64,000 nt of DNA from Eledone cirrhosa (lineage: Eukaryota), in contig OZ024741.1 of NCBI GenBank assembly GCA_964016885.1, forward strand, positions 353,462,001 to 353,526,000, written 5' to 3'. Below the pieces are notes generated by a model. The model saw only the letters and a list, made by a program, of their open reading frames with translations, was not told where the DNA came from and ran no database searches. A program made the translations under genes and the position numbers. Below, piece by piece: positions 10,643 to 52,336 of this stretch; the stretch's first letter is position 1; each line of letters begins with the position of its first letter.

Positions 10643-10682
10643 GCACCTACGTACGTTTCGCCCAGTTGGGCTTCTCAAGGGC
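10643..10682 (-). ncRNA. Minimal hammerhead motif, U3-A8 core variant (left arm)
   Basis: Reverse complement of 11008-11047. Confidence 0.65.
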
Positions 10683-11007
10683 ATAAATAATCACAAGTGT
10701 TCCTTATATTGCTCGGAAAGAGTTTTTGGGGTTAAATCCACATCAAGGTTCATTGCTCGCAAAAATATCTTGTTTTGATTTTGCAGCAGGTCAAGGGAGG
10801 TAACTCTGGTCGGTGTTAGGGCAGTCTTTCCCGGACAATTTTTTTTTTTTTTTGTCCGGGAAAGACTGCCCTAACACCGGCCAGAGTTACCTCCCTTGAC
10901 CTGCTGCAAAATCAAAACAAGATATTTTTGCGAGCAATGAACCTTGATGTGGATTTAACCCCAAAAACTCTTTCCGAGCAATATAAGGAACACTTGTGAT
11001 TATTTAT

Positions 11008-11047
11008 GCCCTTGAGAAGCCCAACTGGGCGAAACGTACGTAGGTGC
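11008..11047 (+). ncRNA. Minimal hammerhead motif, U3-A8 core variant
   Basis: gccc-TTGAGAA-gccc aact gggc-GAAA-cgtacg-TA-ggtgc. Confidence 0.65.
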
Positions 11048-11101
11048 TGTTTTAAATAAACATGTTTTAACGGTCTATTCTCCGATTTTTTACTTTCCCA
11101 C

Positions 11102-11136
<35 letters not shown>

Positions 11137-13360: not shown

Positions 13361-13384
13361 GGAAAAAAGAGAAAACAGCGAAAA

Positions 13385-13567
<183 letters not shown>

Positions 13568-13604
13568 TCGAAATTAAGGTGTTTTTTCTTAATATCCTAC
13601 ACGG

Positions 13605-13830
13605 GTAGAGAAAAGAAGTTGAAAATGCAATTAGAGTTTTTAAGACGTTTTATTTAAGTTTCATGATTTTCAAAAATTAAGAAAAGATGTGTGTTACAAG
13701 TTGCCATAGCCTCACATTTCTCTATCGTTCTTAACTTTTGAAAATCCTGAAACTTGTGAAACCACTAATATTATAGATTATTGTAAGTAAACCGTCTTAA
13801 AGACTCCAATTGCATTTTCGACTTCCTTTT
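13605..13830. mobile_element. Diverged fold-back element between (TA)n tracts
   Basis: Inverted arms aaaagaagttgaaaatgcaattagag / ctccaattgcattttcgacttcctttt and gattttcaaaaattaagaa / ttcttaacttttgaaaatc. Confidence 0.55.
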
Positions 13831-13930
13831 TATATATATACATATATAAAGACATACACACACGCGCGCGCGCGCACACACACACATATATATAAATATA
13901 TATATGTATATATATATATATATGTATATA

Positions 13931-14255
13931 TAATATAAAACGAAAAATCAGTGATGCATCTGAACTCAATTTAGTGTGTGTTACAATTGTTTCGCCGGCA
14001 CCCAGCTCGAGACGCGATTATTGTGTGGATCTGTCTGATTCTGGACCCGCAGGTTCGACGGACACGTCTAATGATTTCGGAGCATATTCTTCCAGAATCA
14101 GACAGATCCACACAATGATCGCGTCTCGAGCTGTCCGCCGGCGAAACAATTGCAACGCACAATAAATTGAGTTCAGATGCATCATTGATTTTTCGTTTTA
14201 TATTATATCATACTCTGCTCTGTAAGAACATAGAGTATCCAACCGGCATACCGTA
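13931..14255. mobile_element. Fold-back element carrying only the 3' half of a hammerhead (GAAA-caattg-TA)
   Basis: ~115-bp inverted arms, right arm extended ~50 nt, (TA)n flanks. Confidence 0.65.
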
Positions 14256-14626: not shown

Positions 14627-14665
14627 TGAACCTGAAGATTGCGAAAGCATGAAAGTACTTGTTCA
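14627..14665 (+). ncRNA. Minimal type I hammerhead motif
   Basis: tgaac-CTGAAGA-t tgc GAAA gca t-GAAA-gtac-TT-gttca; 5-bp stem I, GNRA-capped stem II, palindromic stem III. Confidence 0.75.
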
Positions 14666-16100: not shown

Positions 16101-16631
16101 GTATAAAAGAGAAAACACAGGTAAGCATTAAGAGAAGGATTTTATTCAGGTATTTACGACCGTTTCATTGGTAAGTGCAACCTTATATTGCTATACTGCA
16201 TTCCTAGATGTTTGACTATATTGTGTGCCTCGTTGTTGATGTTTATCAGTGCCGCCTCATTAGTTTTTTTGTATTTCCTATGTAATTCCTTCCGTATGAA
16301 GCTATTGCATGTATTAACATCCATCGTATACACATATGAGGTTTTGTCCGCTTTGACAATAATTCCATTTGTGGTTCGCAGTTTTTTTAAGAATGTATTT
16401 ATGTCATTCTGGAGTTTATTATTCCTCCGCTTTTTGAATTTGGTATTCATAATCATCTTCAGTAAGTCCTGTTCAAAGGCATCCAGTTGAGGGTTGGTAG
16501 GTGGGTTCTTACACGATTTGAAGCCGTATGTTTCCTTTTTGTATTCCCCTTCTTGGCTATCTTTTCTTTTTTTCTTTCTCACCCCTTCTTTGCTTTTATT
16601 TTTGTCATTATTATCTTTATCTCTATATATA

Positions 16632-16690
<59 letters not shown>

Positions 16691-17272
16691 TCCCTCTCTT
16701 TCTCCCTCTCTATCCATCCCTCCCACTATGATCAATTTAATTCTCTTTAACTCACTACATTCCACGACATGAAGTCTGGTATCAAAACTGACCAAGGAAT
16801 CCTTCCACCTCTACCCCTTCCTCCATCTCAGTTTGTCACTCTACTTCCTACCTCTTCCCCCTTTGTCTCTCTCTATACTATTCCGTCTGTCCCTTCATCT
16901 TCTGATTCCTCTCTCTCTATACTAGTAAATACAATTCAAAATAAATGTTTTTCTCTATATATTAAGAATTATTTCAAGAGTTATTTACTATTTTGAAAAT
17001 TTGGACTGTGAACAACAATTATAATTGAGTGGCTGCTATTTGCAGTATAGCAATATAAGGTTGCACTTACCAATGAAATGGTCGTAAATACCTGAATAAA
17101 ATCCTTCTCTTAATGCTTACCTGTGTTTTCTCTTTCATACTTTATACTCCAAGATTGAACGGAATTCTTACAAACTTGTGGAGTTACCCCTAACCGTACG
17201 TTGAAACCATCCAGGAAACTGGCTTTCTTAACCAAAAACTGGATCAGAATAAGCAATTTTTTGCTTCTCTAA
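16101..17272. mobile_element. Penelope-like element remnant (second family) with inverted ends and an N-terminal ORF fragment on minus (~16200-16540)
   Basis: YGFKS..PP..LDAFEQDL..IVKADKT motif typical of the PLE RT N-terminal region; 16101-16200 inverted vs 17041-17140. Confidence 0.7.
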
Positions 17273-21308: not shown

Positions 21309-24300
21309 AATTTCTTTATTAGCCACAAGGTCACAAAAGAAGGGGACAAATACAAATGGGGAGTTTACATACATGTATATGAAAATAAAACTATTAATAC
21401 AATAACAAATAACAATTGAAATCCCCAATAGGGGGGGGGGGGGTTACTAGGGGTTGTACACACCCCGAAAAAATGTACAACTCTCATCTCCAGGAGCACC
21501 AAGAGTGAGTACTCCCTTCCTATCTTCCTCTTTTTCCTCAACCTACAGGCTTATATAGAGAGAAGGCCCAACCACTCGGGCCATCTTTGCCACATTTACC
21601 CACCTTTTATAAAATTTGCTGGAGTACAGCACCTCTCTCTCCATCCTGATTCTTCTTCCAAAATGATATTTGAAAAAACGAATCAGTTGCTCGTCGGAGA
21701 GAAAGGTGTCTGACCTCAGCCCTTTTAACCTCGTGCACCATATAACCTCTTTCACCATAGCCATACACATAGGAAAACCGCCTCTCCCTCGTATTTGAAG
21801 GAGGGTGGCGGTTTGATCATGAACATGGATTCGGTAGTCAACTGGATTGGTCCCACCCGCGACAATAGTCGTTCTACATAGCCTCACAGGTCGGTAACGC
21901 CCGAGCAGTGTATAAATGCGTGCGCGACGGTTTCCTCGTCGCGCACGCATCTCGGACAGATCTTTTCCGAAGGGTCCCTGCCCGGGCGCCCGTGTCTGTA
22001 GAGTCTGTCTCGAACTGGTAGAGCTCCTCGGTAGCACTGCCAGGCCAAGGACTTTTGGAAGTTGTCCATTGGTCCCAGGCGGAAGGTCCTACCGAACAGA
22101 TTGGCCAGTCGTCCTCCTCTACGCCTAGAGTTTCTCCGAGCGCGTCGTCGCACTTGCTATGGACCAACCCTCTATAGAATGTCGAAGTGAAGTCTCCACT
22201 GATCGCCGGGTCCGTTTGCCAGAGGACTGTGAGCGCCTGAGCACATTCGATGTGCCAGTCGCCCATTTTCCTCGGTCTTTGCTTGACCCAGGACTGCAGC
22301 TCGGTCGGTGAGACGAGTCGTGGGGAGGCTCGCCTCACGAACGGGCCCACACCGGTTGTCGGGGGAGGAATACGTGAAGGTGCCGCAGCCTTAGCGCGCG
22401 TTTGCGCATCGTAAGCCACGGCATCCTCAGCCCTCCGTTTGAAGGGTGTTGGCAGCAGATGGATCTTTTCACCAAAGGAGCCCGTTTCTTCCAAAGGTAT
22501 TGGAAGAGCGCGCCCTCCACTTTGGTGAGCGTTTTGGCTGCACAAGGCACGACGGTCAAGCGGTAGTAGATGACGGATGCTATAAAAGTGTTCGCCACCT
22601 CCGCTCGACCTTTCAAGGATAGTTTGCACTCGGCCTACTTCTGGGTGAGCGCAAACACCTCAGCCGTCACCTCGTTCCAGTTCTTCTCCACCTGGAGGTC
22701 CAGACCAAACCAGACCCCGAGCAGTTTTTCCGGTCCTTCCGTCCAGCGTCCGACGACGCCATCGGAAGGTATCGGTTTACCTCTCCACGTTCCGAGCTTC
22801 GCTCCTGTGACCCTTCAGTATTCCTCCAGTAAGGTGCCGATCTCCTCGATTTGCGAGGTACTCGACACCATTACTGTTACGTCGCCGACGCCGCTTTTCG
22901 TAGTCGCGGTTCCAAACGGATGCCCTGCAATAGCTCCAACTTCCGCAGTAGTGGCTCGAGAGTCAGTACGTACAGAAGGGAGGAGAGAGGGCATCCCTGT
23001 CGGATGGATCGCGTGATATTGAACGGCTCCGAGAGGTAGCCATTCACCTTGACCCTTGAGCAGATGTTGCTGATGTGCATTGCAGCAATCCAGCCCCTGA
23101 ACACGGGTCCGAAGCATGCCGCCCCGAGCACCGCATCCAGGTAACGATGGTCAAACCTATCGAAAGCCTTAGACTGATCCAAGTTGATCAGGGCCCCACC
23201 GAAGCCGAGTTTACACCCTACCCTCTCTATGATGTATCGCATGAGGTGGAGGTTGTTGTGTATGGACCTGGTCGGTATTGCGCATGTCTGCGCTTCTCCC
23301 ACCAGGTTTTCGACGACAAGCGCCAGCCTCTTTGCCAACACCTTGGCCAAAATCTGTAACTCTGTGTTTAAAAGAGTTATGGGCTGGAAGTTGCCTATGT
23401 CTTCCCCTTTATTCTCATCCTTCCTGACTAACGTGACTACGCCCTTGGTCACAGAACTGGGAATTCTACCGTTCTGCTGCCACTTGCAGTAGACTGCTTC
23501 CAGGAGACCAGAGAACAAGTCTGGCATTGCTACGTAAAATTCGTAGGGTAGACCGTCGAGACCTGGAGATTTGCGTTTGCCACATTGGCTCAGTGCGCCT
23601 CCTATCTCAGCGGCCGAAATCGGCCTTTCGCAGAACTTCTCCTCGCTGTCCGAGAGTCGCGGTAGGCCGTCGAGGTATGGACCGGAATCCATAGCCCCTC
23701 CCGGCGCGCCGCCTGCCCGAACAGTTGAGCTAAGTGCCGCTGAAAGGCCGCGCACATCTGCTTCGGCTCACGTATTACGCATCCGTCTTGGTCCTTCAAA
23801 GACCGAATCGTGGAATTGTTGCCACTTTTCGCCTCCGTCACTCGAGCCCAGCTAACAGCTTTGGCTCCCTCGTTTCCCAGAGCACGTATTTTGCTTCTGA
23901 CAACGCAGCCTTCATGCTTTGCGTCGAAGAACTGGTCCAAGGCCGTAATCGTCGCTAGCACGCTGGCTACGTTTCCACTCCTAAGTGCCTCTTCTACTTT
24001 ATCTACCAGTTCCTTTTCGGTCTTATTTCTATCTAACACTAATTCTTTACTAAAACCTATCGAGTCTAATCTAACTGCCCTCTTGAGAGAATACCACCAT
24101 TTGTTGTTGACAATGGCCCCCGTCAAGTGCTGCTTAACTAAAGTGCTAATCCGTCTACTGTAGGCTTTGCATGTCGGTAACGACAAGTTCAGTTTCCAGT
24201 AGCCGGGTCCCTGTCTATGGTTTTTGTCAAGGTTGACTAAGCATGTCACTAATTTGTGATCTGAATAGGCAACCATGAACATTTGTGGACAGCTTAACAT

Positions 24301-25608
24301 GTCCCTATCCTTATTTCTAACTAGAACCCTATCTAGGTACGATCTAGATGTTCCGCTAAGATTAGTCCACGTCCACAGTGACACAGTCGGAAAATCTAGT
24401 CGATATCTATCGGCCAGGTCAAATCGGCTGATTAACTGTTTGAGACTGTTATACCCCCCTCTATCGGGACATGCTCCCACATAGTCCCAACGTGCATCTA
24501 GGATTCCATTCCAGTCCCCCACTAACAGCAGGGAGCGAGACCTTCCCAGAAAAGTCTCTAGACGTTTGAAGAAGTCTGGCCGCAGTGTCCCGGATGGGGC
24601 ATATGCGGCCACCAGCCTGAAGGCCCCACCTTCACTATCGTCAACGTCTAGGACCACCAGTCGACCCTCCGGGTCCAGATGTACCGTCTGTGTTACGAGA
24701 TCCAGGTGTTTCCGCAGCAAAACGGCAACCCCACCCCCACCTCCCGGCTGACAGAGAGATGCGTAGATCGAAGATGGTAGTCGTCGAAGATGGGGGCCAG
24801 TTGCGCCAGCTGTGGATCCTGGACTCGAAAATGCCTACTACATCCATACTGTGCGATCTGAGGTCGTTTAAGAGTTTGCCCTGTTTCCAGGGCATCCCCA
24901 GGCCGCGTACATTCACACATCCAACTTTTATATTGGCCATGCTGGTGCTGAAAAGTTAAAAGAAGAGGAAAAGAAATCACTCACCTCTTCGTCTCCTGGG
25001 GACTAGGCTGCACAATTTCCATGGGCGTGTTGGAGGGGTTGTTTGGTGGGGTGGTGGTCTCTGGCGTGGTGGGGACGGAGATATCTGGTGGGTGTCAGGT
25101 GGGGTGGGGGTGGGGAAACATTTCAAAAGAAAGTGGTTATAAGGTTTGACGCAGGCGTTACCTACGTCGTTAGAAAAGTTTTCTTTTAACTGTTTATGTG
25201 TGTCCATGGAGATCCTAATCATTTTAAGATTAGGATTCTCCGAAGAGGGTGTAAAAATTTTCCCTTCGGTCTCCACCGAAAGGTTTTCATATATGGTGTC
25301 TATTAAAGTTTTATTGTTAGTATTTATGTAGGTGTAACATTTTTGTTGTGTTGTGTTGCTTTTTCTCTGTGGTTCTTGTGTGTGTTTACGTTTTGTTTTC
25401 AGTTTTCAGTTTTTGTTTGTGCTGTTTGCGTCGCTTGTGTTGGTGTTTGTGTGTTTGTTGCATTTTTGTTTGTGTTATGTCTTTTCTTTTTTGTTTTTAC
25501 TGGTCGGGAAGGCTCTCCCTCATCGTCACAGGGTGACGATGTTGAGGCCTCCTCCGTGTTGTTGGGGAGATGTACATTTTGTGGAGCTTTTAAGTGTGTG
25601 GATGTTTC
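21309..25608 (-). mobile_element. Tx1-clade LINE, 5'-truncated and decayed, flanked by (GATA)n
   Basis: APE + RT + zinc-finger ORF2; AATAAA at 21315-21320 on minus; GATA repeats at both ends; 24950-25608 assigned less securely. Confidence 0.85.
21543..24940 (-). pseudogene. Tx1 ORF2 (AP endonuclease, reverse transcriptase, zf-RVT), frameshifted
   Basis: VNVRGL, GDWN, SRSYLDR, SDHK, GYWKLN, KSPGLDGLPYEFY, DQSKAFDR, RQGCPLS, CPRC..ETVAHAFIHC; YADD motif damaged near 22885. Confidence 0.9.
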
Positions 25609-26154: not shown

Positions 26155-26325
26155 CACAAATACATATATATGTATATATATATAACACAAATATATATAT
26201 ATATATAACACAAATATAGACACATATATGCATACATATATATATATGCATATACTAAGTATTGAGTACTCTGGTGCGTTATGGTCCATCTGGTTCCTTA
26301 CCACAATTCCTTCGTTATATATGCA

Positions 26326-28985: not shown

Positions 28986-29198
28986 ATTGGTAGTATCGGT
29001 AGAGCGTCGAACATAGAGTTATGCTTTGCGGCATAGAGTTAGACCTCTTTACGATCTGTGTTCAAACACTGCAGAGGTTAGTTTTGCCTTCCATCCTTAC
29101 GGGGGCGATAAAAGTACCAGTCACACACTGGTTCGATTTAATCGACTTTTTCCTCGCCCCAAATTGCTGGCCTTGTGCCTAAATCAGAGACCATTATT
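28986..29198 (+). mobile_element. tRNA-derived SINE with Meta-like core
   Basis: TGGTAGTATCGGTAG A box, GTTCAAAC B box, gccttccatccttacgggggcgataaaagtaccag core, ggccttgtgcctaaa tail. Confidence 0.8.
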
Positions 29199-29624: not shown

Positions 29625-29800
29625 GGAAAAGACTCAGGACCCCGACGACTGAGCTCCGGCCGTTTCGACAGGTAGATCTAGCCGGAGCTCGTCCGTCGGG
29701 CTCCTGACTCTTTTCCTATTACCCACTCTACTACCGTAAGTATCGAGTACTCTAGTGCGTTATGGTCCACCTGGTATATTACCACACTTTCCTTGTTCTC
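29625..29800. mobile_element. Family A short fold-back element (half-hammerhead)
   Basis: ccccgac..tgagctc..ccgtttcgac hairpin plus tattacccactctactacc...ttatggtccacctgg tail; (TA)n flanks. Confidence 0.75.
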
Positions 29801-30769: not shown

Positions 30770-30905
30770 ATAATAATAAATATGAAGACTAAAATCCAAA
30801 GAGGGCTCGATAAGGATAAATATATATCAAATATATAAGAACCGTAGAGCAAATATATATATACAATATATTAATAAATGGAAACTATATTTATAAAACC
30901 ATAAT

Positions 30906-30971
30906 TATTTTATTATATATATTTCAAGGGCGACCAAGGTAAATTATGGTGCGCTTTCATCAGATAAAATA
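30906..30971 (-). ncRNA. Type I hammerhead motif (left arm)
   Basis: Reverse complement of 31091-31156. Confidence 0.75.
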
Positions 30972-31090
30972 CAGATTTGTTTTATAAATAAATATTGACA
31001 TACCCGGAAAAAAGACAACCTCAGCGGTTGAAATTAGCTGAGGTTGTCTTTTTTCCGGGTATGTCAATATTTATTTATAAAACAAATCTG

Positions 31091-31156
31091 TATTTTATCT
31101 GATGAAAGCGCACCATAATTTACCTTGGTCGCCCTTGAAATATATATAATAAAATA
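31091..31156 (+). ncRNA. Type I hammerhead motif
   Basis: tattttat-CTGATGA-aagcgcacca..tggtcgccctt-GAAA-tatata-TA-ataaaata; 8-bp stem I. Confidence 0.78.
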
Positions 31157-31287
31157 ATTATGGTTTTATAAATATAGTTTCCATTTATAAATATATTGTA
31201 TATTTACTCCACTAAATTGTTGACTGCTTTATATCAGTTATAACAATTTTTAAGCCTGTTGAATCCCAACAAATTAAATATAACCTC

Positions 31288-31354
<67 letters not shown>

Positions 31355-31487
31355 TTATTTATTAAAATAACAGATTAAAGTTTAAGCAAAGAATCGATGC
31401 TTTCACCCTCAACGGTTCTTATATATTTGATATATATTTATCCTTATCGAGCCCTCTTTGGATTTTAGTTTCCAAATTTATTATTAT

Positions 31488-31591
<104 letters not shown>

Positions 31592-31664
31592 GTAATAGAA
31601 TGAAACGAAATTTCATTTCTCACTCTTAGTACGGCAGTTACTTAAATGTATATAATAAAATAAT

Positions 31665-31765
31665 TGTTTCTACTTTAGGCACAAGGCCAGCAATTACCCA
31701 GTGCATTACTGGTACTTTATTTTATCGACCCCGTAAGGATGAAAGGCAAAGTCAACCTCGGCGGG
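31665..31765 (-). mobile_element. 5'-truncated Meta-core SINE with 13-bp TSD (ATAATAAAATAAT)
   Basis: TSD at 31652-31664 and 31766-31778; near-identical to 52160-52260. Confidence 0.85.
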
Positions 31766-32161
31766 ATAATAAAATAATGTTGAACAAAAAGGTGACGTGG
31801 TTGCCTAAACACTATACGGCGTAATTCGGGCTGTTTGTTTGTTTACAAACAAACCGAGCATTATAATAAATGTTCGGTAAACCATTACGTGCATATATAT
31901 ATGTGTGCATGTATGTATATATATACATATTACTGTACGTCTGTATACATATATGTATGTACGTATACATACATACTTACATTTAAGTAACTGCCGTATT
32001 AAGAGTGAGAAATGAAATTTCGTTTCATTCTATTCTATTTATCGTTTTCGGTGCGCCCGGCCGACTAAACTCACTCGATATGCAAATTAAGCTGCTCAGG
32101 TGTTAATATGCGTGAGGAAAGTATATACTTTCAGACGTTCAACCATCTGGCAGGAAGGTAT

Positions 32162-32204
32162 ACGATGCTGACGATAGTTAATAAGCTTGAAACTAGTACA
32201 TCGT
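32162..32204 (+). ncRNA. Minimal type I hammerhead motif
   Basis: acgatg-CTGACGA-t agtt aata agct t-GAAA-ctag-TA-catcgt; perfect 6-bp stem I, GUA site. Confidence 0.82.
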
Positions 32205-32425
32205 TCCTGTGTCAGTCTTGAACAAAAAGGTGACGTGGTTGCCTAAACACTGTACGGCGTAATTCGAGCTGTTTGTTTGTTTACAAACACACCGAGCATT
32301 ATAGTAAATGTTCGGTAAACCATTACGTGCATATATATATGTGTGCATGTATGTATATATATATATATATACATACTACTGTACGTCTGTATATATATAT
32401 GTATGTACGTATATATATACATATA

Positions 32426-32495
<70 letters not shown>

Positions 32496-32498
<3 letters not shown>

Positions 32499-33039
32499 TT
32501 TCTGAATTTGTTTAGCAAGATTCTTTATCTGAAAACGTGTGTTGAAACCGATATTGTTATACTTTGGGAGGGTCATGTTGCCAATAACAAACACACGCAC
32601 CAGATGCTTTCACTTCAATTTATTATAATAAATTTATAAATTTAGGAATTTATAAATTTCCGGTTGGTTGGTTGGTTCCACAACCAGATGGTTGTTTATA
32701 TATTGTCAAAGTTCTGTCGTCACACATTCTGTGACCTCTTTAGTGACTGGGGATTCTTTTCTTTGTTTTTTGTGCCTCTCCTTTCCTACGCCATCTTGTT
32801 TGACGGAACAAAGGAGAGGCACAAAAAACAAAGAAAAGAATCCCCAGTCACCGAAGAGGTCACAGAATGTGTGACGACAGAACTTTGACAATATAGAAAC
32901 AACCATCTGGTTGTGGAACCAACCAACCAACCAACCGGAATTTTATAAATTCCTAAATTTATAAATTTATTATAATAAATTGAAGTGAAAGCAACTGGTG
33001 CGTGTGTTTCTTATTGGCAACATGACCCTCCCAAAGTAT

Positions 33040-33046
<7 letters not shown>
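32496..33046. mobile_element. Fold-back element (family E), both HHR copies with mutated cores
   Basis: ~230-bp inverted arms; cores CCGAAGA/CTAAAGA and GACA instead of GAAA. Confidence 0.75.
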
Positions 33047-33072: not shown

Positions 33073-33210
33073 ACGAGGGAAATGTGGTAAGGAACCAGAT
33101 GGACCATAACGCACCAAAGTACTCAATACTTAGGGTAGTAGATTGGGTAATAGGAACACGTGTGACCCCGACGGCAGAGCTCAAGCCGTTTCGACGGTTA
33201 ATTCTTCATA
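33071..33210 (-). mobile_element. Family A element, single arm
   Basis: aacgagggaaatgtggtaaggaaccagatggaccataacgc...ccccgacggcagagctcaagccgtttcgac. Confidence 0.75.
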
Positions 33211-33226: not shown

Positions 33227-34124
<898 letters not shown>

Positions 34125-35518: not shown

Positions 35519-35577
35519 GTAAATATATATAAAATAAAATAAATAAGTCAAATATTTAAAATTTGGCTTCGTTTATT

Positions 35578-35632
35578 ACTGCTATATATATTTCGGTGAC
35601 AGCCATCTTTGGCTGTGACCTCTTCAGGCAGT
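35578..35632 (-). ncRNA. Type I hammerhead motif (intact core)
   Basis: actgc-CTGAAGA-ggtcacagcca aaga tggctgtcacc-GAAA-tatata-TA-gcagt. Confidence 0.85.
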
Positions 35633-35915
35633 CCGAATTGGTGTGGTAGAGACGGGTACACATGTTGTTGAGGTGTTTAACTCCGTCAATACTCCGATAT
35701 GCCCAGTTCCTGATTGGGTTGTTATTTCTCTGAGGAACTGGAATCATATGAATTCGAACAAACGAATTTCAGCGTCAAAAATTCGTTTGTTCGAATTCAT
35801 ATGATTCCAGTTCCTCAGAGAAATAACAACCCAATCAGGAACTGGACATATCGGAGTATTGACGGAGTTAAACACCTCAACAACATGTGTACCCGTCTCT
35901 ACCACACCAATTCGG

Positions 35916-35970
35916 ACTGCCTGAAGAGGTCACAGCCAAAGATGGCTGTCACCGTAATATATATAGCAGT
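35916..35970 (+). ncRNA. Type I hammerhead motif with GAAA>GTAA mutation
   Basis: Same as the left arm except GTAA at 35954-35957. Confidence 0.7.
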
Positions 35971-36094
35971 AATAAACGAAGCAAAAATTTAAATATATGA
36001 CTTATTTATTATATTTTCCATTACTCCAAGTAACCAAACCAACCTCGCACTTCGTCGAGTCCTCCAATCTGTCGGTAAACAACCAACATATACT

Positions 36095-36137: not shown

Positions 36138-36139
<2 letters not shown>

Positions 36140-36330
36140 AACCAGTAAGACCCCGACGGCTGAGCTCAAGCCGTTTCGACGGCTAATTGAGTCCAGAATT
36201 AGCCGTCGAAACGGCTTGAGCTCAGCCGTCGGGGTATTACTGGTTCCTATTACCCACTCTACTACCCTAAGTATTGAGTACTTTGGTGCGTTATGGTCCA
36301 CCTGGTTCCTTACCACATTTCCTTCGTTAT
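36138..36330. mobile_element. Family A fold-back element (half-hammerhead)
   Basis: Hairpin centred ~36192; gtc-GAAA-cggct tgagctc agccg-TC-ggggt. Confidence 0.8.
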
Positions 36331-38111: not shown

Positions 38112-38333
38112 AGCAAAGAGGGTGTGGTAAGATATCAGGCGGACCATAACGCACGAGGGTACTCGATACTTGGGGTAGTAGAGTGGATAATACGAAAAGG
38201 TTCGGGACCCCGACAGCTGAGCTCCGGCCGTTTCGACAGCTAGATCCGAACTAAGCCACCAGACTCGTGGCTTAGTTCGGATCTAACTGTCTAAACGGCC
38301 GGAGCTCAGCTGTCGGGGTCCCGAACCTTTTCA
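38112..38333. mobile_element. Family A fold-back element
   Basis: Hairpin 38194-38333 centred ~38262. Confidence 0.75.
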
Positions 38334-38944: not shown

Positions 38945-39197
38945 ATATATATATATATATATATATGAGAGACGTAAAATAAGAAAATTATAAAATTAAC
39001 TTACTTAACAAACCACTCTCCACTGATTGACCTCGATGTCACGTGATTGATTCTTTTGAATTTGCCGCCGACGCAGTAGGCAGTGATTTTCTCAATGGCT
39101 TGAAATTAGTCCACGCTTTCCTTTTTTCCATCCACTGAATTATTTTTGTATAAGTTCCCTGTGTCCACGTATTGCCTGGAAACTTAGCTGAGAATAG

Positions 39198-39280
39198 ACT
39201 TCCCTGATGACGAAAGGCTTCTCTGTACGCTTCTTCGGAAAGTATGTTTATTCCCTTTCAGAAACTAATTAGTTGGGAGT
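39198..39280 (+). ncRNA. Type I hammerhead motif
   Basis: acttcc-CTGATGA-c gaaagg...cctttc a-GAAA-ctaattag-TT-gggagt. Confidence 0.78.
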
Positions 39281-39720
39281 GAAATTTTAGTAAGTAAGTT
39301 AATTTTATAATTTTCTTATTTTACGTCTCTCATATTATTGTTCTGCAACCCCATGCATTGAACCAAAAAGTTACTAAGACAAAACCTATATATTTGCTAG
39401 CATAAGTATGCATCTGTGTATATATATGTTACTAGATATACTAATTCTTTATAATTATCTCCAAATTATTTGTCGAGCAAATATTGGCCAAAACCGCTGC
39501 TATAGTAACAGTCCGGCTGCTGTCTTCTTAACAAACCACTCTCCACTGATTGACCTCGATGTCACGTGATTGATTCTTTTGAATTTGCCACCGACGCAGT
39601 AGGCAGTGATTTTCTCAATGGCTTGAAATTAGTCCACGCTTTGCTTTTTTCCATCCACTGAATTATTTTTGTATAAGTTCCCTGTGTCCACGTATTGCCT
39701 GGAAACTTAGCTGAGAATAG

Positions 39721-39803
39721 ACTTCCCTGATGACGAAAGGCTTCACTGTACGCTTCTTCGGAAAGTATGTTTATTCCCTTTCAGAAACTAATTAGTTGGG
39801 AGT
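39721..39803 (+). ncRNA. Type I hammerhead motif (second tandem copy)
   Basis: Same motif 523 bp downstream. Confidence 0.78.
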
Positions 39804-39965
39804 GAAATTTTAGTAAGTTAATTTTATAATTTTCTTATTTTACGTCTCTCATATTAGTGTTCTGCAACCCCATGCATTGAACCACAAAGTTACTAAGACA
39901 AAGCCTATATATTTGCTAGCATAAGTATGCATCTGTGTATATATATGTTACTAGATATACTAATT

Positions 39966-40001
<36 letters not shown>

Positions 40002-40007: not shown

Positions 40008-40485
40008 CCGGAGGCCATATTTAGTTGAATCAGGTTTATTTAAAACTCCGTTATACATATTTCACTGAGGACTATCTGTTATGATAGCCTGAACTCTTCA
40101 AACTGCGAAACCTAAAATAAATATTGAAAGTTGCTAAGAAACTTTTGAATATTTGAATATGGAAAATTACAATAATCTCCCCGAAAAAAGTATTTTTTCA
40201 TGATACAAGGGGCCGGTTGAACGCGTGGTGTTGTTTCTACGACCACCGGTCCCTGTATATATAAGAGAGTGTTTAAGTTTGCTTGAATCATTTTGGAATA
40301 TAAAAAAATGTTCGTTTTGGAAGCTTCTACAAGGCAGATGGATAAATCTCCGGGTAACAAAATCAGTTGGCAGTAAGAAAATTGAACAGAAGGAATATTT
40401 TTCCTTCTTCCTACTGACACCTAATTTTGTTACTCGGAGATTTACCCATCTGCATTGTGGAGGCTTCCAAAACGACCATTTATAT
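40002..40485. mobile_element. Old element with decayed HHR-like motif (minus ~40047-40105) and a diverged hairpin 40306-40480
   Basis: Minus: TTGAAGA..ctatc/gatag..GAAA-tatgta-TA; imperfect ~75-bp inverted arms. Confidence 0.45.
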
Positions 40486-41062
40486 ATATACACATAACCA
40501 AGCATATTTCTATATATACACTCATACAAAATATGCATAATAAATCAATGTATTCAGAGATAGCAAAAAGATGGGTGAGAGGTATAAACGGTATAATATA
40601 AAGTGTAAGCAAATATAAAATGTAGAGCCATTCAGTCTGTTGATGGTATTAATTCCCAATTTGTCAATAGATACTTATCAAAGTCACGGCATTATTTGAA
40701 ATTTCTGGCCTTAAATTTATTGCAGTTCTTATGTAATCTACATCACTCAAGGATCTTCCACTTGATGTTGAAATCAATAGCCTATTCTTTCAAATTCCAG
40801 ATGTAATTGGACAATTTCGTTACATTCCTTTATGCATGAAATATATATGAAATTTATGTGAAGTATATATGAAATTTCTGAAGTAATGTTGTTAAATTTA
40901 CATCCCTTCATATCTATATAGTGTGTGTACGTGTATACATACATACATACGTACTTACGTACATACATACATACATACATACATACATACATACATACAT
41001 ACATACATACATACACATATACATACATACGTACTTACGTACATACATACATACATACATAC

Positions 41063-42686: not shown

Positions 42687-42821
42687 AGTGTAATTTTCTA
42701 CACAAAACGAAGGTTATAGAGAAAATTGAGGTTGGTAATGGCACATGGAATATATAAGAGAGAGAATACTTTTTTGTGAAAAAACATAATTTTATAAGGT
42801 AAGGAAATAATAAAGGGTATA

Positions 42822-42870
42822 AAAAATGACCGGTTTCGATGGGTCTGCAAAAGCCATCTTTTCAAATGTT
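42822..42870 (-). ncRNA. PLE 3'-end hammerhead motif, U3-A8 core (sense to the ORF)
   Basis: aacat-TTGAAAA-gatgg..ccatc-GAAA-ccgg-TC-atttt. Confidence 0.65.
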
Positions 42871-43220
42871 GATTAATATTAAGAAAAATTAATAATACGA
42901 AGAGTTAAAATTTGAGACTTGAAAATTCAAGTATAAAATTCATTGTGGGATTTCATAGCAGTTTTCATCTAGGTAGCAACAACAGGTTGACTGCTGTGTC
43001 CCTTTCTGGTAGTGAATGAGAAGTTATTTGGGGTGTGGGTTATTTTATAAAGGTCTGATTTAGCAATCGCCAGCTGCTGGTCAGTGAGGGGGTGGAAGCA
43101 ATATACACACACATATATCTTCCTGTGATGGGTAGGAGAGTGGAGCGTGATAGAAAAGGATTTAGTGCACTTACACCTATATATACACACATACCTTCAT
43201 CCACACATACATACATATAC

Positions 43221-43267
<47 letters not shown>

Positions 43268-43336
43268 CACACATACATACACACACACATACATATACAT
43301 ACACACATACACACACACACACATATATATACACAT

Positions 43337-43389
<53 letters not shown>

Positions 43390-43432
43390 TATATATACAT
43401 ATACACACATACATCCAGATACACACATACAT

Positions 43433-43526
<94 letters not shown>

Positions 43527-44066
43527 CCACACATACATACACACACACATATATATATACATACACACATACAAACATACACACACACACACACACACAT
43601 ATATATACACACATACACACACATATATATACACACACACACACACACATGCATATATATATATATATACACATACGCATACATCCAGATACCCACATAC
43701 ATACACACACACACACACACGCACACACAATACATACATCCACATGCACACACATACTCACACACACACACACACACATACATACACCCACACACAGAGA
43801 AATGGCCTTCAAATATATATATATATATATACATACAGACACATATTTTTTCCATAATATAAGAAGTTGGGGCAGTGAAATTAAAATAATTCTGTGTGCG
43901 CATATATATATAGATATATGTGTGTGCACGTGCAGGGTTTAACATGGATGTGTTGGTCACACAAAGGCATGGTCTGTCAATGAATAAACCTGATTCTACA
44001 GAATTGGTCTCTGGTCTTTAATAGTAGTGATTCCGTGTGTATGTGTGTTTATATTTTATGACAATT

Positions 44067-46160
44067 CTATTGGGGTGATAACCCGTTTAGTTTTGGTTTA
44101 AATTTGTTAAGGAATAGATTTTCTTTGTTTATTCTTTGTTGTTGTGTGAACGAATCTGAGCACTTGTAGAAGGGGAAGATTTTAAAGTTGGGTAGTGTCA
44201 TTCCTGCGCAGTTCGCAATATGGCTGCTCAAGGGGATTTTTCTTGTGTTAGCGTCCCGGATTTGTTGGCGGTGGATGGTCATTCTTTTGCGTAATGAGGT
44301 GCCCGTCTGTCCTATGTAGTTGTGTTTGCACCCACCGCAAGTTATTGCGTAAATCAAGTTCTCCGAGTTGCAGGTGAAATTGTTTTTTACTGTAAATGTT
44401 TGGCCATCTTTGAATGTAAATGTTTGTCCTTCAGTGAGGTAGAGGCACGTTCCACAGTTTGTTCTACCACATTTGGTAACTGTAGGGTTGAGGATTGGTT
44501 TGGGTATATTTGGTCCAGTGAGAATGCGTTTAAGTGATTTGGGTTGTCTTTTACTTTTAAGGATCTTGTGTGTTTCAAGAATAGACTTCATTTTTACATC
44601 TTTAAGTAGGATGGGGAGGTTTTTGTGTAGGTGATCAAACATTTCGGTATTTCTGGGGTTGAAAGTGGATACATATGGCAGGGTGTTGAGTGTGGTTTTC
44701 TGTTTTGGATTGTTAAGTTGATGGGGATTTAGGTGTTTTGCCCTGTCTATTCCATTGTTGATTATTTCAAGTGGAAAGGCTCTTAAGTCTTTTAGTTCCT
44801 TTAGTCTTTGCTCCCGTTTAGGTGGATCTGATACTATGGTACATATACGTTTGGCCAAATTGTAAGGAATGTTAAGTTTTGTATGTTTTGGGTGACTTGA
44901 TGTGAAAAAGAGGTATTGCTTGGAATCTGTGGGTTTATAGAATATATCTGTATCTAATTTCCCGTCTATTACAGAGATGAGAATATCCAAGAAGGCTAAT
45001 TCCTTAGGATTGGATTCCATTGTGAATTGTATGTTATTATCTATGTTGTTTATCATGTTTTTAAACGTAGTAAGTGAGTTCATGTCTTCTTGCCATAGGA
45101 TAAAGCAGTCGTCTAGATATCTTTTCCAATTGGCTTTGAGGTGTGTGTGGAAAGAGTCTCCAAATAAGAGAAGGGACTGACTGTATATTTGTTGTTCATG
45201 GAATCCCATGACTAGGTTGGCATATGTGGGTGCTACTTTCGTGCCCATTGCCGTACCTGATACTTGTCTGTATGTTGAACCATTGAATGTGAAGTAGTTA
45301 TTTTGTAGGATAAAGCGGAGTCCGTCAGTGATAAAATCTGTGTTGATGCGTGTCGGTATTTCTGATGGGTGTGTGTTAATCCAGTATTGGACTGCTGTTA
45401 TTCCATAGTTGTGAGGTATGTTTGTGTAGAGGTTTATTACGTCAAAGGAGACAAGAATTGTATTTGCACTTACTGTTTTAGGGAGGTGTTTCAGCATGTC
45501 AAGGTCATCTCGTATGTAGCTCTGTATATGTTGTAGAAAGGGTTTCAGTAGGATGTCCAGAAAGTTGCTAAGTCTGTGGGTTTCACATGTAGGGCCTGCT
45601 ATAATTGGCCTGAGTTTTAGGTCTTCTGGTGGTGTTAGTTCAATGTAATTGTTGGTTGAGGTGTCACATGCATCGTTTATGGGTTTACATTTGTGAAGTT
45701 TCGGTAAGCCGTAAAAAGAGCTTGTATTGCATTTGAAGTGGCTTATATAGTTAAACTCTTTTGTGGTTAAGCTGTTGCGGTATTTATTCAGTAAGGTCAA
45801 AAGGTTCCCCATTGTTTTGGTGTGTTTGTAGTTTTCTGTTTTTTCATAGTATGTGTTGTTTTCTAAAATGTTAAGTGCGAGGGTCCTATAGTAGTCCGTA
45901 TTCATAATCACAACAGTACTGCCTTTATCGGCTTCTTTGATAGTTATCTCAGGGTTGTTTCTAAGTGTGAATAATTCTTCCCATTCGTGTGTAGATAGGT
46001 TTGATTTCGTGTGTTTATTTGTAATTTTTTCATAGGGAAAGTTGGTGATGTGTTCGCAGTACGTGTCCAGTGCTTTATTTTTTCCCTTTTGTGGGCAGAA
46101 ATTGCTTTTATTTCTAACCAGTGATTCGTCTTCAGTGTTGGTGTCGTTGTGGTGTAGGTG
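44067..46160 (-). CDS. PLE reverse transcriptase plus Cys-rich linker plus GIY-YIG endonuclease (5'-truncated, uninterrupted ~700 aa)
   Basis: ADKG, FYGLPKLHK, RPII, SFDVINLYTNIP, GTAMGTKVAP, RYLDD, FLDI, CGRTNCGTC, LIYAITC..CKHNYIGQT; the first ~12 residues of the tracked ORF come from the inverted arm. Confidence 0.93.
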   Translation of the reverse strand, partial: HLHHNDTNTEDESLVRNKSNFCPQKGKNKALDTYCEHITNFPYEKITNKHTKSNLSTHEWEELFTLRNNPEITIKEADKGSTVVIMNTDYYRTLALNILENNTYYEKTENYKHTKTMGNLLTLLNKYRNSLTTKEFNYISHFKCNTSSFYGLPKLHKCKPINDACDTSTNNYIELTPPEDLKLRPIIAGPTCETHRLSNFLDILLKPFLQHIQSYIRDDLDMLKHLPKTVSANTILVSFDVINLYTNIPHNYGITAVQYWINTHPSEIPTRINTDFITDGLRFILQNNYFTFNGSTYRQVSGTAMGTKVAPTYANLVMGFHEQQIYSQSLLLFGDSFHTHLKANWKRYLDDCFILWQEDMNSLTTFKNMINNIDNNIQFTMESNPKELAFLDILISVIDGKLDTDIFYKPTDSKQYLFFTSSHPKHTKLNIPYNLAKRICTIVSDPPKREQRLKELKDLRAFPLEIINNGIDRAKHLNPHQLNNPKQKTTLNTLPYVSTFNPRNTEMFDHLHKNLPILLKDVKMKSILETHKILKSKRQPKSLKRILTGPNIPKPILNPTVTKCGRTNCGTCLYLTEGQTFTFKDGQTFTVKNNFTCNSENLIYAITCGGCKHNYIGQTGTSLRKRMTIHRQQIRDANTRKIPLSSHIANCAGMTLPNFKIFPFYKCSDSFTQQQRINKENLFLNKFKPKLNGLSPQ

Positions 46161-46469
46161 TAGGTGTAAGTGCACTAAATCCTTTTCTATCACGCTCCAC
46201 TCTCCTACCCATCACAGGAAGATATATGTGTGTGTATATTGCTTCCACCCCCTCACTGACCAGCAGCTGGCGATTGCTAAATCTGACCTTTATAAAATAA
46301 CCCACACCCCAAATAACTTCTCATTCACTACCAGAAAGGGACACAGCAGTCAACCTGTTGTTGCTACCTAGATGAAAACTGCTATGAAATCCCACAATGA
46401 ATTTTATACTTGAATTTTCAAGTCTCAAATTTTAACTCTTCGTATTATTAATTTTTCTTAATATTAATC

Positions 46470-46517
46470 AACATTTGAAAAGATGGCTTTTGCAGACCCA
46501 TCGAAACCGGTCATTTT
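46470..46517 (+). ncRNA. Hammerhead motif in the inverted arm of the PLE
   Basis: Reverse complement of 42822-42870. Confidence 0.65.
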
Positions 46518-46617
46518 TTATACCCTTTATTATTTCCTTACCTTATAAAATTATGTTTTTTCACAAAAAAGTATTCTGTCTCTTATATATTCCATGTGCC
46601 ATTACCAACCTCAATTT

Positions 46618-46669: not shown

Positions 46670-46675
<6 letters not shown>

Positions 46676-47055
46676 AACAGCCCGAATTAAGCCGTACAGT
46701 GTCAGCAACCATCGTCGTCCCTTTGTTCAACACTGACAAAGGAACGATGATCTATTTCAAGCTTATTAGCTATCGTCAGCATCGTATATCTTCCCGTTAG
46801 ATGATTGAACGTTTGAAAGTATATACTTTCCTTATGCATATTAACGGCTGAGCAGCCTAATTTGTATATCGAGTGAGTTTAGTCGGCTGGGCGTACTGAA
46901 AAGGATAAATGGAAAAGAATGAAACGAAATTTCATTTCTCACTCTTAGTACGGCTGATACTTAAATATAAGTATGTATACGTACATACATATACGTGTAG
47001 AGACGTACAGTAGTACTAAGAGTGAGAAATGAAATGTTGTTTCATTCTTTTCTCT
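46670..47055 (-). mobile_element. Permuted copy of the 438-nt family L with HHR (46744-46785, stem III decayed) and short inverted end
   Basis: Homologous to the inverse of 31930-32280; 47014-47050 is inverted vs 46915-46950. Confidence 0.75.
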
Positions 47056-47069: not shown

Positions 47070-47275
47070 AACAAAGGAAGTGTGGTAAGGAACCAGGTGG
47101 ACGGTAATGCACCAGAGAACTCGATACTTAGGGTAGTAGAGTGGGTAATATGAAAAACGTCAGGAAACCGACGGGGTCATCCGGCCGTTTCGACAGCTAG
47201 TTCCGAACTAAGTTAGTTCGGATATAACTGTCGAAACGGCCGGATCCCAGCCATCGAGGCCCTGACCTTTTTCGT
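47070..47275. mobile_element. Family A fold-back element
   Basis: Hairpin centred ~47211. Confidence 0.72.
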
Positions 47276-48405: not shown

Positions 48406-48637
48406 AACGAAGGAATTGTGGTAAGGAACCAGATGGACCATAACGCACCATAGTACTCAATACTTAGGGTAGTAGAGTGGGTAATAGGAACAAGTATGAC
48501 CCCGACGGCAGAGCTCAAGCTGTTTCGACGGCTATTTCTGGACTAAATAAGAATTTTTTCAAAAATAATTCTTCTTTAGTCCAGAAATAGCCGTCGAAAC
48601 GGCTTGAGCTCTGCCGTCGGGGTCATACTTGTTCCTA
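48406..48637. mobile_element. Family A fold-back element
   Basis: Hairpin 48485-48637. Confidence 0.78.
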
Positions 48638-50504: not shown

Positions 50505-50937
50505 GTGTTATTAGGTTAAATTGTTTTTCCGTTAAAACTCCCGCCTGCTGATTCTCGACCACTCCAAAACGGAGAAAGCAGGCTTTGTTAACATCAAGTA
50601 TTAAAATAATTCTTTGTACATGTTATTTGACGAATTTGGAGGGTGATTACGGTTTGTTTCGCAGGCGTTTTCAGTTTAGGGTATTTTCTCAGGGAGAGTA
50701 GACTAATTGTATCAATAACGCTCTTATTTCCGAGTATATATATATATATATATAATCAAGGAAATGTGGTAAGGATTAGCCGTCGAAACGGTTTGAGCTC
50801 AGCCGTCGGGGTCCTACTCGTTCCTATAAATATATATATATATAGTTATGTAATAAATAATTGTTTATTACATAACTAAAAAGCTCTGTAGCCTACATAG
50901 AGCACTCTATTTTCTTTTACCTTTCCTACGGAAATAC

Positions 50938-50989: not shown

Positions 50990-52033
50990 TGTGTGTGTGT
51001 GTGTGTATCCATAACAAAGCAGGTGTGGTAAGATACCAGGTGGACCATAACGCACCAGAGTACTCAATACTTAAGGTAGTGGAGTGGGTAATAGGAAAAG
51101 AGTCAGTATATATATATGTGTGTGTGTATTCTCATCAGTGTGTTGATACTCTGTGTTGTCTATGTAGTATAGGCATTATATCGATATATAGAGAAATATA
51201 GAGAGATTCCTTGATTGCGTGATTGTGTGATTGATTGATTGGTTTATGATTGATTGCCTGTTTGATTGAAAACCAGCTAAGTTGATTGATTTATTGATGT
51301 TTATAAAGATCAATACTAATATAGATATATGTACGTACACTTACTCTCTTTTCTCTAACACGCACACACACACATATATATATATATGTATGTGTGTTTA
51401 TGTGAGTGTGTGTGAATGTGTGTGTGTGTGAGTGTGTGTGAATGTGTGGTGCTGTGTATGTGTGTGTCAGTAGAGAGGGCGAACAAAATACAAACAGATA
51501 GATGGACAGATAATCAATGAAAGAAAGATAGTTATATATAAATACATATATTGATAGAGTGAGAGATGAGGAAAGAGAGAGACTGAGACACACAGGCATG
51601 AATAGATAGAGAAAGAGAAGGCGCGTATGGGTGTGTGAGAAAGAGACGATAGTAGGGGTATGTAGGAATGTATTTGTGAGATGTTATAAGGAAATGTAGA
51701 GAGAGATAGACATATATTCTAGTATATATAGATAAAACACTGAATTGACACGCACATATTCACAAATACACACAAACACACTCACCTATATATACACACA
51801 GAAAAACATTTATATTGCTGAACATTTTTGGTTCTAAAATCTTAGTTAAATTTTATACGTGACATATTTAATATAGAAATGGCGCCTACGGGACTAGAAC
51901 TGTTTCATTCGGAGGAAATCATCAGGAAAGAAATATTTATACTCTGCTGTTTATTGAGTACCTTACTTACTGTAGTTACCCCCGATTGAACCCGGAATAA
52001 ACCCCGGAATAAACACCCACACACACCCACACC

Positions 52034-52156: not shown

Positions 52157-52336
52157 AATTGTTTCTACTTTAGGCACAAGGCCAGCAAATTACCCAGTAC
52201 ATTACTGGTACTTTATTTTATCGACCCCGTAAGGATGAAAGGCAAAGTTAACCTCGGCGGGATTTGAACTCAGACTGTAAAGGGACGTAACTATGCTAGA
52301 AAGCATGGCGCCCAACCCTCTACCGATACTGCCAAT
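52157..52336 (-). mobile_element. Full-length tRNA-derived Meta-core SINE
   Basis: Reverse complement of ttggcagtatcggtagag...gagttcaaatcccgccgagg..gcctttcatccttacggggtcgataaa. Confidence 0.85.

What the first reader, a model, noticed from the sequence alone, without database searches (positions are those of the whole stretch)
31593..32430. 438-nt HHR unit (family L): tandem copy plus a permuted copy at 46670-47055
Seen: a direct repeat with 438-nt period and a clean minimal HHR (6-bp stem I, CTAG stem III, GUA). The tandem begins ~20 nt downstream of the equivalent cleavage site, similar to family J. A second locus is permuted and inverted. This is a third, independent family with the same architecture.
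Basis: partly seen in the sequence, partly recalled or inferred. Interest (0 to 1): 0.7.

Follow-up and report, generated by a model that had tools for sequence, protein, structure and literature searches.

The report
Hammerhead retrozyme riding Penelope retrotransposons
A 438-base non-coding repeat carrying one hammerhead-ribozyme motif occurs about 1.5 times here and once more 14 kb away; it is likely an ordinary passenger of Penelope-type retrotransposons (a known kind of element), whose copy ends are likely set by where reverse transcription starts rather than by the predicted ribozyme cut.

Summary
Partly confirmed. The 438-nt period, the type I hammerhead (predicted cut after 32198) and the permuted, inverted copy at 46670-47052 are real. 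But the tandem is only ~1.45 units with one hammerhead. That hammerhead has a U·U mismatch under helix II, so it is not 'clean minimal', and the second locus's motif has lost its cleavage triplet. 31652-31778 is an unrelated repeat. Both inverted copies end within 1 nt of the same unit position (+274/275 from the cut) against a TA microsatellite. The four 5' ends vary (+18-20, +168, +218, +236). This head-to-head, fixed-3'-end, (TA)n-targeted anatomy is the published signature of Penelope-like elements. It recurs in several other hammerhead families in the window and in an RT/GIY-YIG element at 42723-46617. [quoted passage not shown] Three families have a 5' end 17-21 nt past the cut, which is suggestive only (simulated P 0.06-0.14). 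Cleavage, expression and genome-wide copy number are untested.

The parts
31491..31591 (.). (TA)n microsatellite, left flank and likely insertion target of locus 1
31594..31650 (-). Inverted 5'-truncated copy of the L unit (equals 31978-32034); its 3' end (+274 from the HHR cut) abuts the TA tract
   Evidence: 56 of 57 identical
31652..31778 (-). Unrelated dispersed repeat fragment (SINE-like; that label is recalled, not tested) with a 13-nt duplication at 31652-31664 and 31766-31778; likely a later insertion at the inversion junction
   Evidence: 97% to 52158-52263, 83% to 60747-60846, 80% to 29071-29131; duplication; alignments
31780..32217 (+). One full 438-nt L unit, GC 0.365; only low-complexity ATG frames of 41-59 aa over 31780-32430; starts 18-20 nt after the HHR cut position
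31884..31979 (+). Internal TA/TG-rich tract forming a long predicted hairpin
32010..32035 (+). Predicted hairpin plus pyrimidine run ending at site B (32034/32035), the shared 3' end of both inverted copies
   Evidence: fold; junctions
32150..32210 (+). Type I hammerhead motif: helix I 6 bp plus 6-bp extension beyond a 6-nt bulge, core 32168-32174, helix II 4 bp on a U·U mismatch, GAAA, CTAG palindrome, GUA; predicted cut after 32198
   Evidence: helix I pair probabilities 0.76-0.92; helix II 0.32-0.42
32218..32420 (+). Partial second unit (~0.45), no HHR; exact match ends near 32412 (+206) and then dissolves into (TA)n, about 11 nt or less short of where the inverted arm begins in unit coordinates (+218)
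46670..47015 (-). Locus 2 forward copy, permuted (5' end +168, 3' end +78 to +81 of the next unit), 86% identical; HHR core at 46779 with degenerate helix III and no NUH
47013..47052 (+). Locus 2 inverted 5'-truncated copy, joined by 3-nt microhomology; 3' end at +275 against TC/TA microsatellite
42723..46617 (-). 5'-truncated Penelope-like element (RT plus GIY-YIG-type motif, CX4CXXC linker = Neptune/Nematis type) flanked by inverted terminal repeats with a U3-A8 hammerhead; candidate type of helper enzyme, no DNA homology to L
   Evidence: ORF 44067-46211; RVT_1 E 2.9e-7; homologues; motifs; repeats 42723-43188/46152-46617; HHR; no L homology

Best explanation
Family L is a 438-nt non-coding repeat with one type I hammerhead motif per unit, and it is likely a non-autonomous retroelement (non-LTR retrozyme) copied in trans into (TA)n tracts by a Penelope-like RT/GIY-YIG enzyme. 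Shown in the sequence: head-to-head arrangement, two 3' ends fixed within 1 nt at +274/275, variable 5' ends, microsatellite flanks, an intact cut site inside the copies. Inferred: the enzyme nicks both strands of a TA tract, and each strand primes reverse transcription at a preferred internal site of a more-than-unit RNA (site B at +274/275; probably a second site A near +80). The two cDNAs stop at variable points and are joined head to head. Locus 1 fits twin priming on one RNA of about 700 nt: a 57-nt product from site B, and a ~640-nt product primed in the internal TA tract just upstream of it. Inferred: the hammerhead would cleave mainly as a dimer through its palindromic helix III, trimming multimeric transcripts and perhaps setting the template's 5' limit, but it does not define the insertion ends. 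A linear multimer is favoured as template; a circle with internal initiation is not excluded.
For: Both inverted copies end at 32034/32035-equivalent (chance ~0.007 on a 438-nt unit). 5' ends vary: +18-20, +168, +218, +236. The same anatomy, with one or two fixed 3' ends, occurs in other window families (with for the 591-nt family's cut): 523-nt family +57/59 and +170/171 in 5 of 5 rows; 591-nt family +77 and +242 (one locus); family at 30856-31290 +58 and +142 in 4 of 5 rows; 32497-33043 family two ends 54 nt apart in 6 of 6 rows; and the RT/GIY-YIG element's terminal repeat +105 in 3 of 3. Published PLE signature: 5' truncation, partial tandems, adjacent inverted 5'-truncated copy, optional tail, microsatellite bias (PMC8557442 passages; PMC3846280 passages). 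The purified Anolis PLE cuts and extends both target strands and starts RT internally, 85-92 nt after its HHR cut (my subtraction of its +26 cut from its +111-118 starts), with HHR cleavage dispensable (PMC11167929). Animal retrozymes are reported as PLE derivatives (bioRxiv 10.64898/2026.07.22.740005). A U·U mismatch at the base of helix II is known in a cleaving axolotl retrozyme HHR (PMC7229834). The unit is highly self-paired (circular fold z -6.85, 65% paired; z -2.65 without the TA tract). The 438 register is supported by both loci sharing the unit junctions.
Against: Only two loci and four arms of L are available; the host genome could not be searched. No DNA homology between L and the window's PLE terminal repeat, so no helper is identified. 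The A-to-B distance (~195 nt) is far longer than the 30-40-bp tail described. Neither forward copy ends at site B, and both end in microsatellite, so sites A and +206 could be later deletions. No Rfam hammerhead match. HHR divergence between the loci (8 of 63) is no lower than flanks (13 of 112, 14 of 108), so no sign of selection. Eight of nine Xenopus retrozyme dimers did not cleave in vitro, so a motif does not guarantee activity.
Confidence: 0.7

Rival explanations
1. One reading: HHR-to-HHR monomers (or the circles made from them) are the templates, and copy starts are set by the cleavage site; permutation arises from rolling-circle copying.
For: Forward copy starts at +18-20; 5' ends at +19 (591-nt family) and +17-21 (523-nt family); strong self-pairing; circRNAs are shown for other animal retrozymes (PMC7229834). 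A circle would also explain intact cut sites inside copies.
Against: 1 of 4 L 5' ends near the cut; none at +1 to +10 among the 12 downstream 5' ends listed; clustering P 0.14 (any window) or 0.06 (near the cut) by simulation; random permutation does not predict two 3' ends within 1 nt. A linear cut-to-cut monomer cannot template copies with an intact internal cut site (19 of 23 arms).
Confidence: 0.15
2. Both loci are dead remnants of an old PLE terminal repeat, reshaped by DNA-level duplication, fold-back and microsatellite slippage; the 438-nt unit was never mobilised as RNA.
For: All boundaries touch TA-rich DNA; locus 2's HHR is decayed; no selection signal; the Li et al. preprint discusses local satellite-type amplification of pLTRs.
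Against: Two loci 14 kb apart and 14% diverged share the unit junctions and the same inverted-arm end; independent DNA rearrangements would not converge on it. Several unrelated HHR families repeat the pattern.
Confidence: 0.1
3. L is a ribozyme-bearing SINE-like element mobilised by a LINE (LINE RT/endonuclease fragments lie at 12692-13657 and 22877-24834), with inversions from LINE twin priming.
For: LINE-type RT and exo/endonuclease domains are present; locus 1 fits twin-priming geometry.
Against: No poly(A) or repeat tail, no clear TSD at L ends, partial tandems and two fixed internal 3' ends as in the window's PLE; type I HHRs with palindromic helix III are reported in PLE repeats (PMC4209133).
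Confidence: 0.05

Closest known systems
Metazoan non-LTR retrozymes (Cervera & de la Pena 2020, PMC7229834; mussel 350-390 bp, axolotl 330/350 bp; Li et al. 2026 preprint)
   Same: Short (438 nt, top of the 150-450 range), low-GC, non-coding repeat with one type I HHR per unit, 6-bp helix I, 4-bp helix II, palindromic helix III, strongly self-paired; U·U base of helix II as in axolotl HHR_Amex2.
   Different: Only ~1.45 units with one HHR, so it fails the preprint's 'active' definition; it carries inverted 5'-truncated arms and fixed 3' ends. The word 'inverted' has 0 occurrences in the main text of PMC7229834 and occurs only in a reference title in the preprint. No sequence link to a published family was tested.
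Penelope-like elements and their pseudo-LTRs (Neptune/Nematis type; PMC8557442, PMC3846280, PMC11167929)
   Same: Partial tandem, inverted 5'-truncated copy, fixed 3' ends, microsatellite targets, HHR upstream of the 3' end; putative site A (+78-81) is close to the Anolis PLE's RT starts (85-92 nt after the cut).
   Different: No ORF; the repeating unit is 438 nt rather than 3-4 kb; the two 3' ends are ~195 nt apart rather than 30-40; not homologous to the PLE terminal repeat in this window.
PLE minimal hammerheads (min-HHR; Cervera & de la Pena 2014, PMC4209133)
   Same: CUGANGA followed by an extra nucleotide, palindromic helix III, predicted dimer dependence.
   Different: No G10.1-C11.1 pair, helix II short (4 bp, not 7-8), helix I long (6+6 bp); closer to the canonical retrozyme type than to min-HHR.

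Membership tests
Metazoan non-LTR retrozyme | Type I HHR with conserved core, GAAA and NUH | tested here: met
   Locus 1; locus 2 has lost the NUH; no Rfam hit
Metazoan non-LTR retrozyme | Repeat unit of about 150-450 bp, GC below 50% | tested here: met
   438 nt, GC 0.365
Metazoan non-LTR retrozyme | No protein-coding ORF, no LTR structure | tested here: met
   Only low-complexity 41-59-aa frames; PBS/PPT not specifically searched
Metazoan non-LTR retrozyme | At least two consecutive units each with a complete HHR ('active' definition of Li et al. 2026) | tested here: not met
   One HHR per locus; these copies are monomer-type offspring, and a multimeric master elsewhere in the genome is untested
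Metazoan non-LTR retrozyme | Predicted highly self-paired RNA | tested here: met
   z -6.41 linear, -6.85 circular, -2.65 without the TA tract
Metazoan non-LTR retrozyme | Self-cleavage in vitro; expression as linear/circular unit RNA | not testable with these tools
   No RNA data or assay available
Metazoan non-LTR retrozyme | Target-site duplication longer than 4 bp when present | tested here: inconclusive
   Flanks are microsatellite
PLE-mobilised insertion | Inverted 5'-truncated copy adjacent to the 5' end | tested here: met
   2 of 2 loci
PLE-mobilised insertion | Partial tandem with variable 5' truncation and fixed 3' end | tested here: met
   3' ends +274, +275; 5' ends +18-20, +168, +218, +236; n is small
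PLE-mobilised insertion | 30-40-bp tail at one end | tested here: inconclusive
   Ends differ by ~195 nt (locus 2) and ~55-70 nt (locus 1); both could be deletions
PLE-mobilised insertion | Insertion in microsatellite, (TA)n | tested here: met
   4 of 4 outer ends abut TA/TC/TG tracts; the window is microsatellite-rich, which weakens the test
Autonomous Penelope-like element | RT plus GIY-YIG ORF inside the unit | tested here: not met
   the nearby ORF belongs to a separate element
pLTR derivative of a named PLE | DNA homology to an autonomous PLE terminal repeat | tested here: inconclusive
   None within the window at word size 7, E<=5; rest of the genome and Repbase not searchable
PLE min-HHR | G10.1-C11.1 pair and long helix II | tested here: not met
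   U·U mismatch, 4-bp helix II against the consensus in the PMC4209133 supplement
PLE min-HHR | Palindromic helix III allowing a dimer | tested here: met
   Predicted self-duplex -6.8 kcal/mol at locus 1, +2.0 at locus 2

The most novel reading that the evidence does not exclude
Short hammerhead retrozymes in this genome are inserted by Penelope-type enzymes from linear, 1.5-unit RNAs whose 5' end was made by hammerhead cleavage in vivo. The 5' ends 17-21 nt past the cut in three unrelated families are the fossil record of that cleavage, and the two fixed 3' ends per family map the enzyme's initiation sites. Junction mapping in one microsatellite-rich genome would then settle which enzyme moves animal retrozymes, whether circles are needed, and whether PLE-type hammerheads cut in vivo.
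Probability: 0.2. Interest if true: 0.6.

Novelty: new member of a known kind. Interest (0 to 1): 0.3.

Why it matters
The element itself is one more family of a described class. The value lies in the junctions. The papers read infer PLE mobilisation of animal retrozymes from co-occurrence and pLTR homology and say the mechanism remains to be shown, and the role of HHR cleavage in PLEs is open. Here ORF-less HHR units carry the PLE integration signature, with fixed 3' ends that give concrete predicted initiation sites (+274/275 and about +80). A genome-wide end map would make both questions directly testable at little cost.

Tried and rejected
Rfam: no hit at gathering score in the window; at E<=10 on 31400-32600 the 75 matches held no hammerhead family and were mostly AT-repeat microRNA models, rejected as compositional. 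Exact search for the L HHR pattern in bacterial/archaeal genomes: 0. Scan of the same collection for relatives of the PLE protein, hoping for host-contaminant contigs with terminal repeats: 29 pattern matches, none confirmed. Phage collection: no match. No tRNA genes in the window. Homology of L to the other HHR families or the PLE repeat: none. Selection on the HHR between loci: not seen; two sequences give no covariation test. Assembly artefact: rejected because the tandem copies differ at 4 of 113 positions and, at the two of these positions covered by locus 2, each copy keeps the locus 2 base once. Coding role: rejected. Left out of counts: the 33073/47071/48407 family (no CUGANGA half seen) from both the 23-arm count and the simulation; the 32497-33043 family from the 23-arm count (it is in the 12-arm simulation with a cut position estimated by eye); the 10046 arm from the simulation (5' end hidden by an N gap). 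The 591-nt family's HHR was located by eye and was not returned by the scans. Unchecked: the host genome, transcriptomes, Repbase/Dfam, viral and metagenome collections.

Full report
Setting. The window is AT-rich animal-type DNA packed with dinucleotide microsatellites and starts with a 32-bp satellite. My impression that it is cephalopod-like is recalled and untested; the one named eukaryotic homologue among the 120 listed for the window's PLE protein is from a bivalve.

Observation. The repeat is real: 31780-31971 recurs at 32218-32417, spacing 438, 109 of 113 identical in its unique part. It is one full unit plus about 0.45, so the tandem holds one hammerhead. The motif has a 6-bp helix I (32162-32167 with 32199-32204), core 32168-32174, GAAA, a CTAG palindrome and GUA, with the predicted cut after 32198. 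A scan requiring a palindromic helix III found 13 such motifs in the window and 0 in each of 5 shuffles; a variant scan found 11, against 2 in 20 shuffles. In context helix I is well predicted (pair probabilities 0.76-0.92) and helix II less so (0.32-0.42). Helix II is 4 bp on a U·U mismatch and lacks the G10.1-C11.1 pair of PLE minimal hammerheads (PMC4209133 main text parts 1-2 and supplement file 2 part 2). The same mismatch is described for axolotl HHR_Amex2, which cleaves 22% in one hour as a monomer and better as a dimer (PMC7229834). Rfam does not recognise the motif. The 3' half is self-complementary (-6.8 kcal/mol), so dimer-dependent cleavage is the prediction, and locus 1 has no cis partner. 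Locus 2 (47015->46666, 86% over 357 nt) is permuted and inverted as stated, but its helix III and triplet are destroyed (self-duplex +2.0).

The interval is composite. 31594-31650 is an inverted copy of 31978-32034. 31652-31778 is an unrelated dispersed repeat, present three more times in the window, with a 13-nt flanking duplication. Locus 2 has its own inverted arm, 47013-47052. Both inverted arms end within one base of the same unit position (+274 and +275 from the cut) and run into microsatellite (chance about 0.007). The four 5' ends are at +18-20, +168, +218 and +236. The forward 3' ends are at +78-81 (locus 2) and about +206 (locus 1), both dissolving into microsatellite. At locus 1 the forward copy stops about 11 nt or less before the point where the inverted arm begins, the geometry expected if two primers copied adjacent parts of one RNA (the twin-priming model is recalled). 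A deletion between the internal TA tract and the flank would look similar.

Context. The same anatomy recurs in unrelated HHR families: head-to-head arms with one or two fixed 3' ends. The 523-nt family ends at +57/59 or +170/171 (5 of 5 rows); the 591-nt element at 58092-59395 at +77 or +242; the family at 30856-31290 at +58 or +142 (4 of 5 rows; the fifth stops at +132); the 32497-33043 family at two sites 54 nt apart (6 of 6). In the 523- and 591-nt families the tandem junction coincides with the outer of these ends. An element at 42723-46617 encodes an RT (RVT_1, E 2.9e-7) with a CX4CXXC linker and a GIY-YIG-type motif. It has 1070 homologues among 7999 candidates scored, many with a precomputed PF01541 domain. 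Its inverted terminal repeats carry a U3-A8 hammerhead and end at +105 in 3 of 3 copies. The linker motif suggests the Neptune/Nematis type (PMC8557442 passages); no tree was built. L has no homology to it, and the two are likely independent insertions in one TA tract.

Of 23 arms in seven families with a located cut, 19 read through an intact cut position (the tally was entered by hand), so most templates were uncleaved multimers or circles. Of 12 arms whose 5' end lies downstream of a cut, three from three families start at +17 to +21, one at +11/12, and none at +1 to +10. A uniform-truncation simulation gives P 0.14 for such a cluster anywhere and 0.06 near the cut. This is a lead, not a result, and stalling at the helix I extension would give the same picture without cleavage.

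Mechanism. Shown: anatomy and ends. From the literature: PLE insertions are 5'-truncated partial tandems with an adjacent inverted copy, an optional tail and a microsatellite bias. The purified Anolis PLE protein nicks AT-rich DNA on both strands and starts reverse transcription at internal RNA sites that match genomic ends; HHR cleavage is protein-assisted and dispensable (PMC11167929 parts 1-2). Inferred: a PLE protein binds a more-than-unit L RNA in trans, both target strands prime at preferred sites, and the products join head to head; the hammerhead trims multimers but does not set the ends. Confidence 0.7. Rivals: cut-defined or rolling-circle templates 0.15, DNA-level rearrangement of a dead repeat 0.1, LINE mobilisation 0.05.

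Against this reading. Two loci only; no helper identified; the inter-end distance is much longer than a published tail; no selection signal (HHR 8 of 63 differences against 13 of 112 and 14 of 108); part of the folding signal comes from the TA tract (z -6.85 with, -2.65 without); eight of nine tested Xenopus dimers did not cleave.

Comparison and novelty. It works like a PLE insertion and fits the non-LTR retrozyme class in size, GC, HHR type and folding, but these copies fail the two-HHR 'active' criterion of bioRxiv 10.64898/2026.07.22.740005 (parts 1-3 of 5 read), which already argues that animal retrozymes are PLE derivatives. I therefore file family L as a new member of that kind on structure, with activity unshown. 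I found no description of inverted arms or fixed ends for retrozymes in term searches of PMC7229834 and the preprint or in the listings; an octopus repeat annotation has no occurrence of 'hammerhead' or 'ribozyme' (PMC13282606 passages). Opposite-strand HHR pairs 100-700 bp apart are already noted in PMC4209133. I read parts 2-3 and the discussion of PMC7229834. Its supplement, the preprint's supplements and one supplement of PMC4209133 were not seen and may list related families; subscription papers and Repbase were not searchable.

Verdict. A real, well-formed but ordinary element; interest 0.3. The reusable result is the end map, which makes the mobilisation mechanism testable.

Noticed in passing
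58092-59395: Near-identical (99.6-100%) head-to-head, partially tandem element with a 591-nt unit and a U3-A8 hammerhead-like motif (cut after 59318 by eye); likely very young and the best candidate in the window for activity tests.
   Followed up: partly
10046-10354, 38967-39968, 59615-60125: 523-nt HHR family with an 8-nt palindromic helix III and a C·A mismatch under helix II; 39004-39968 holds two complete HHRs in tandem.
   Followed up: partly
39472-39480, 58986-58994: The 523- and 591-nt units share a 9-nt motif about 17-25 nt after their tandem junction; L lacks it. Possible promoter or protein-binding element.
   Followed up: no
14627-14665: Single HHR motif with the same U·U under helix II and a 4-nt palindromic helix III as L but unrelated sequence; a 1x1 mismatch under helix II occurs in three families here.
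   Followed up: partly
42723-46617; 33331-33842: 5'-truncated Neptune/Nematis-type Penelope-like element with an uninterrupted 693-codon frame and inverted repeats 98.9% identical; a third terminal-repeat copy at 33331.
   Followed up: partly
26255-26315, 29626-29796, 33073-33204, 36138-36327, 38114-38332, 47071-47273, 48407-48635, 50772-50827, 51014-51106, 54619-54769: Most abundant short family: head-to-head pairs with two fixed 3' ends 77 nt apart; many 5' ends stop just upstream of a GAAA motif resembling a hammerhead 3' half, and no CUGANGA half was seen.
   Followed up: partly
10588-11102, 13924-14213, 30856-31206, 32555-33043, 35531-36017, 40298-40489: Further long near-perfect palindromes; those at 10588, 30856 and 35531 carry an HHR in each arm.
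   Followed up: partly
16101-17140: Fragment that resembles a second Penelope-type ORF by eye (16154-16810, no Pfam hit) with a 100-nt inverted repeat 98% identical.
   Followed up: no
1-9747: 32-bp satellite, about 304 copies, 93% matches.
   Followed up: no
11482-13657, 22877-24834, 55536-57164: LINE-type RT and endonuclease fragments and a hAT-like transposase remnant.
   Followed up: no
61855-61895: Isolated minimal HHR-like motif with a weak helix I; no second copy examined.
   Followed up: no
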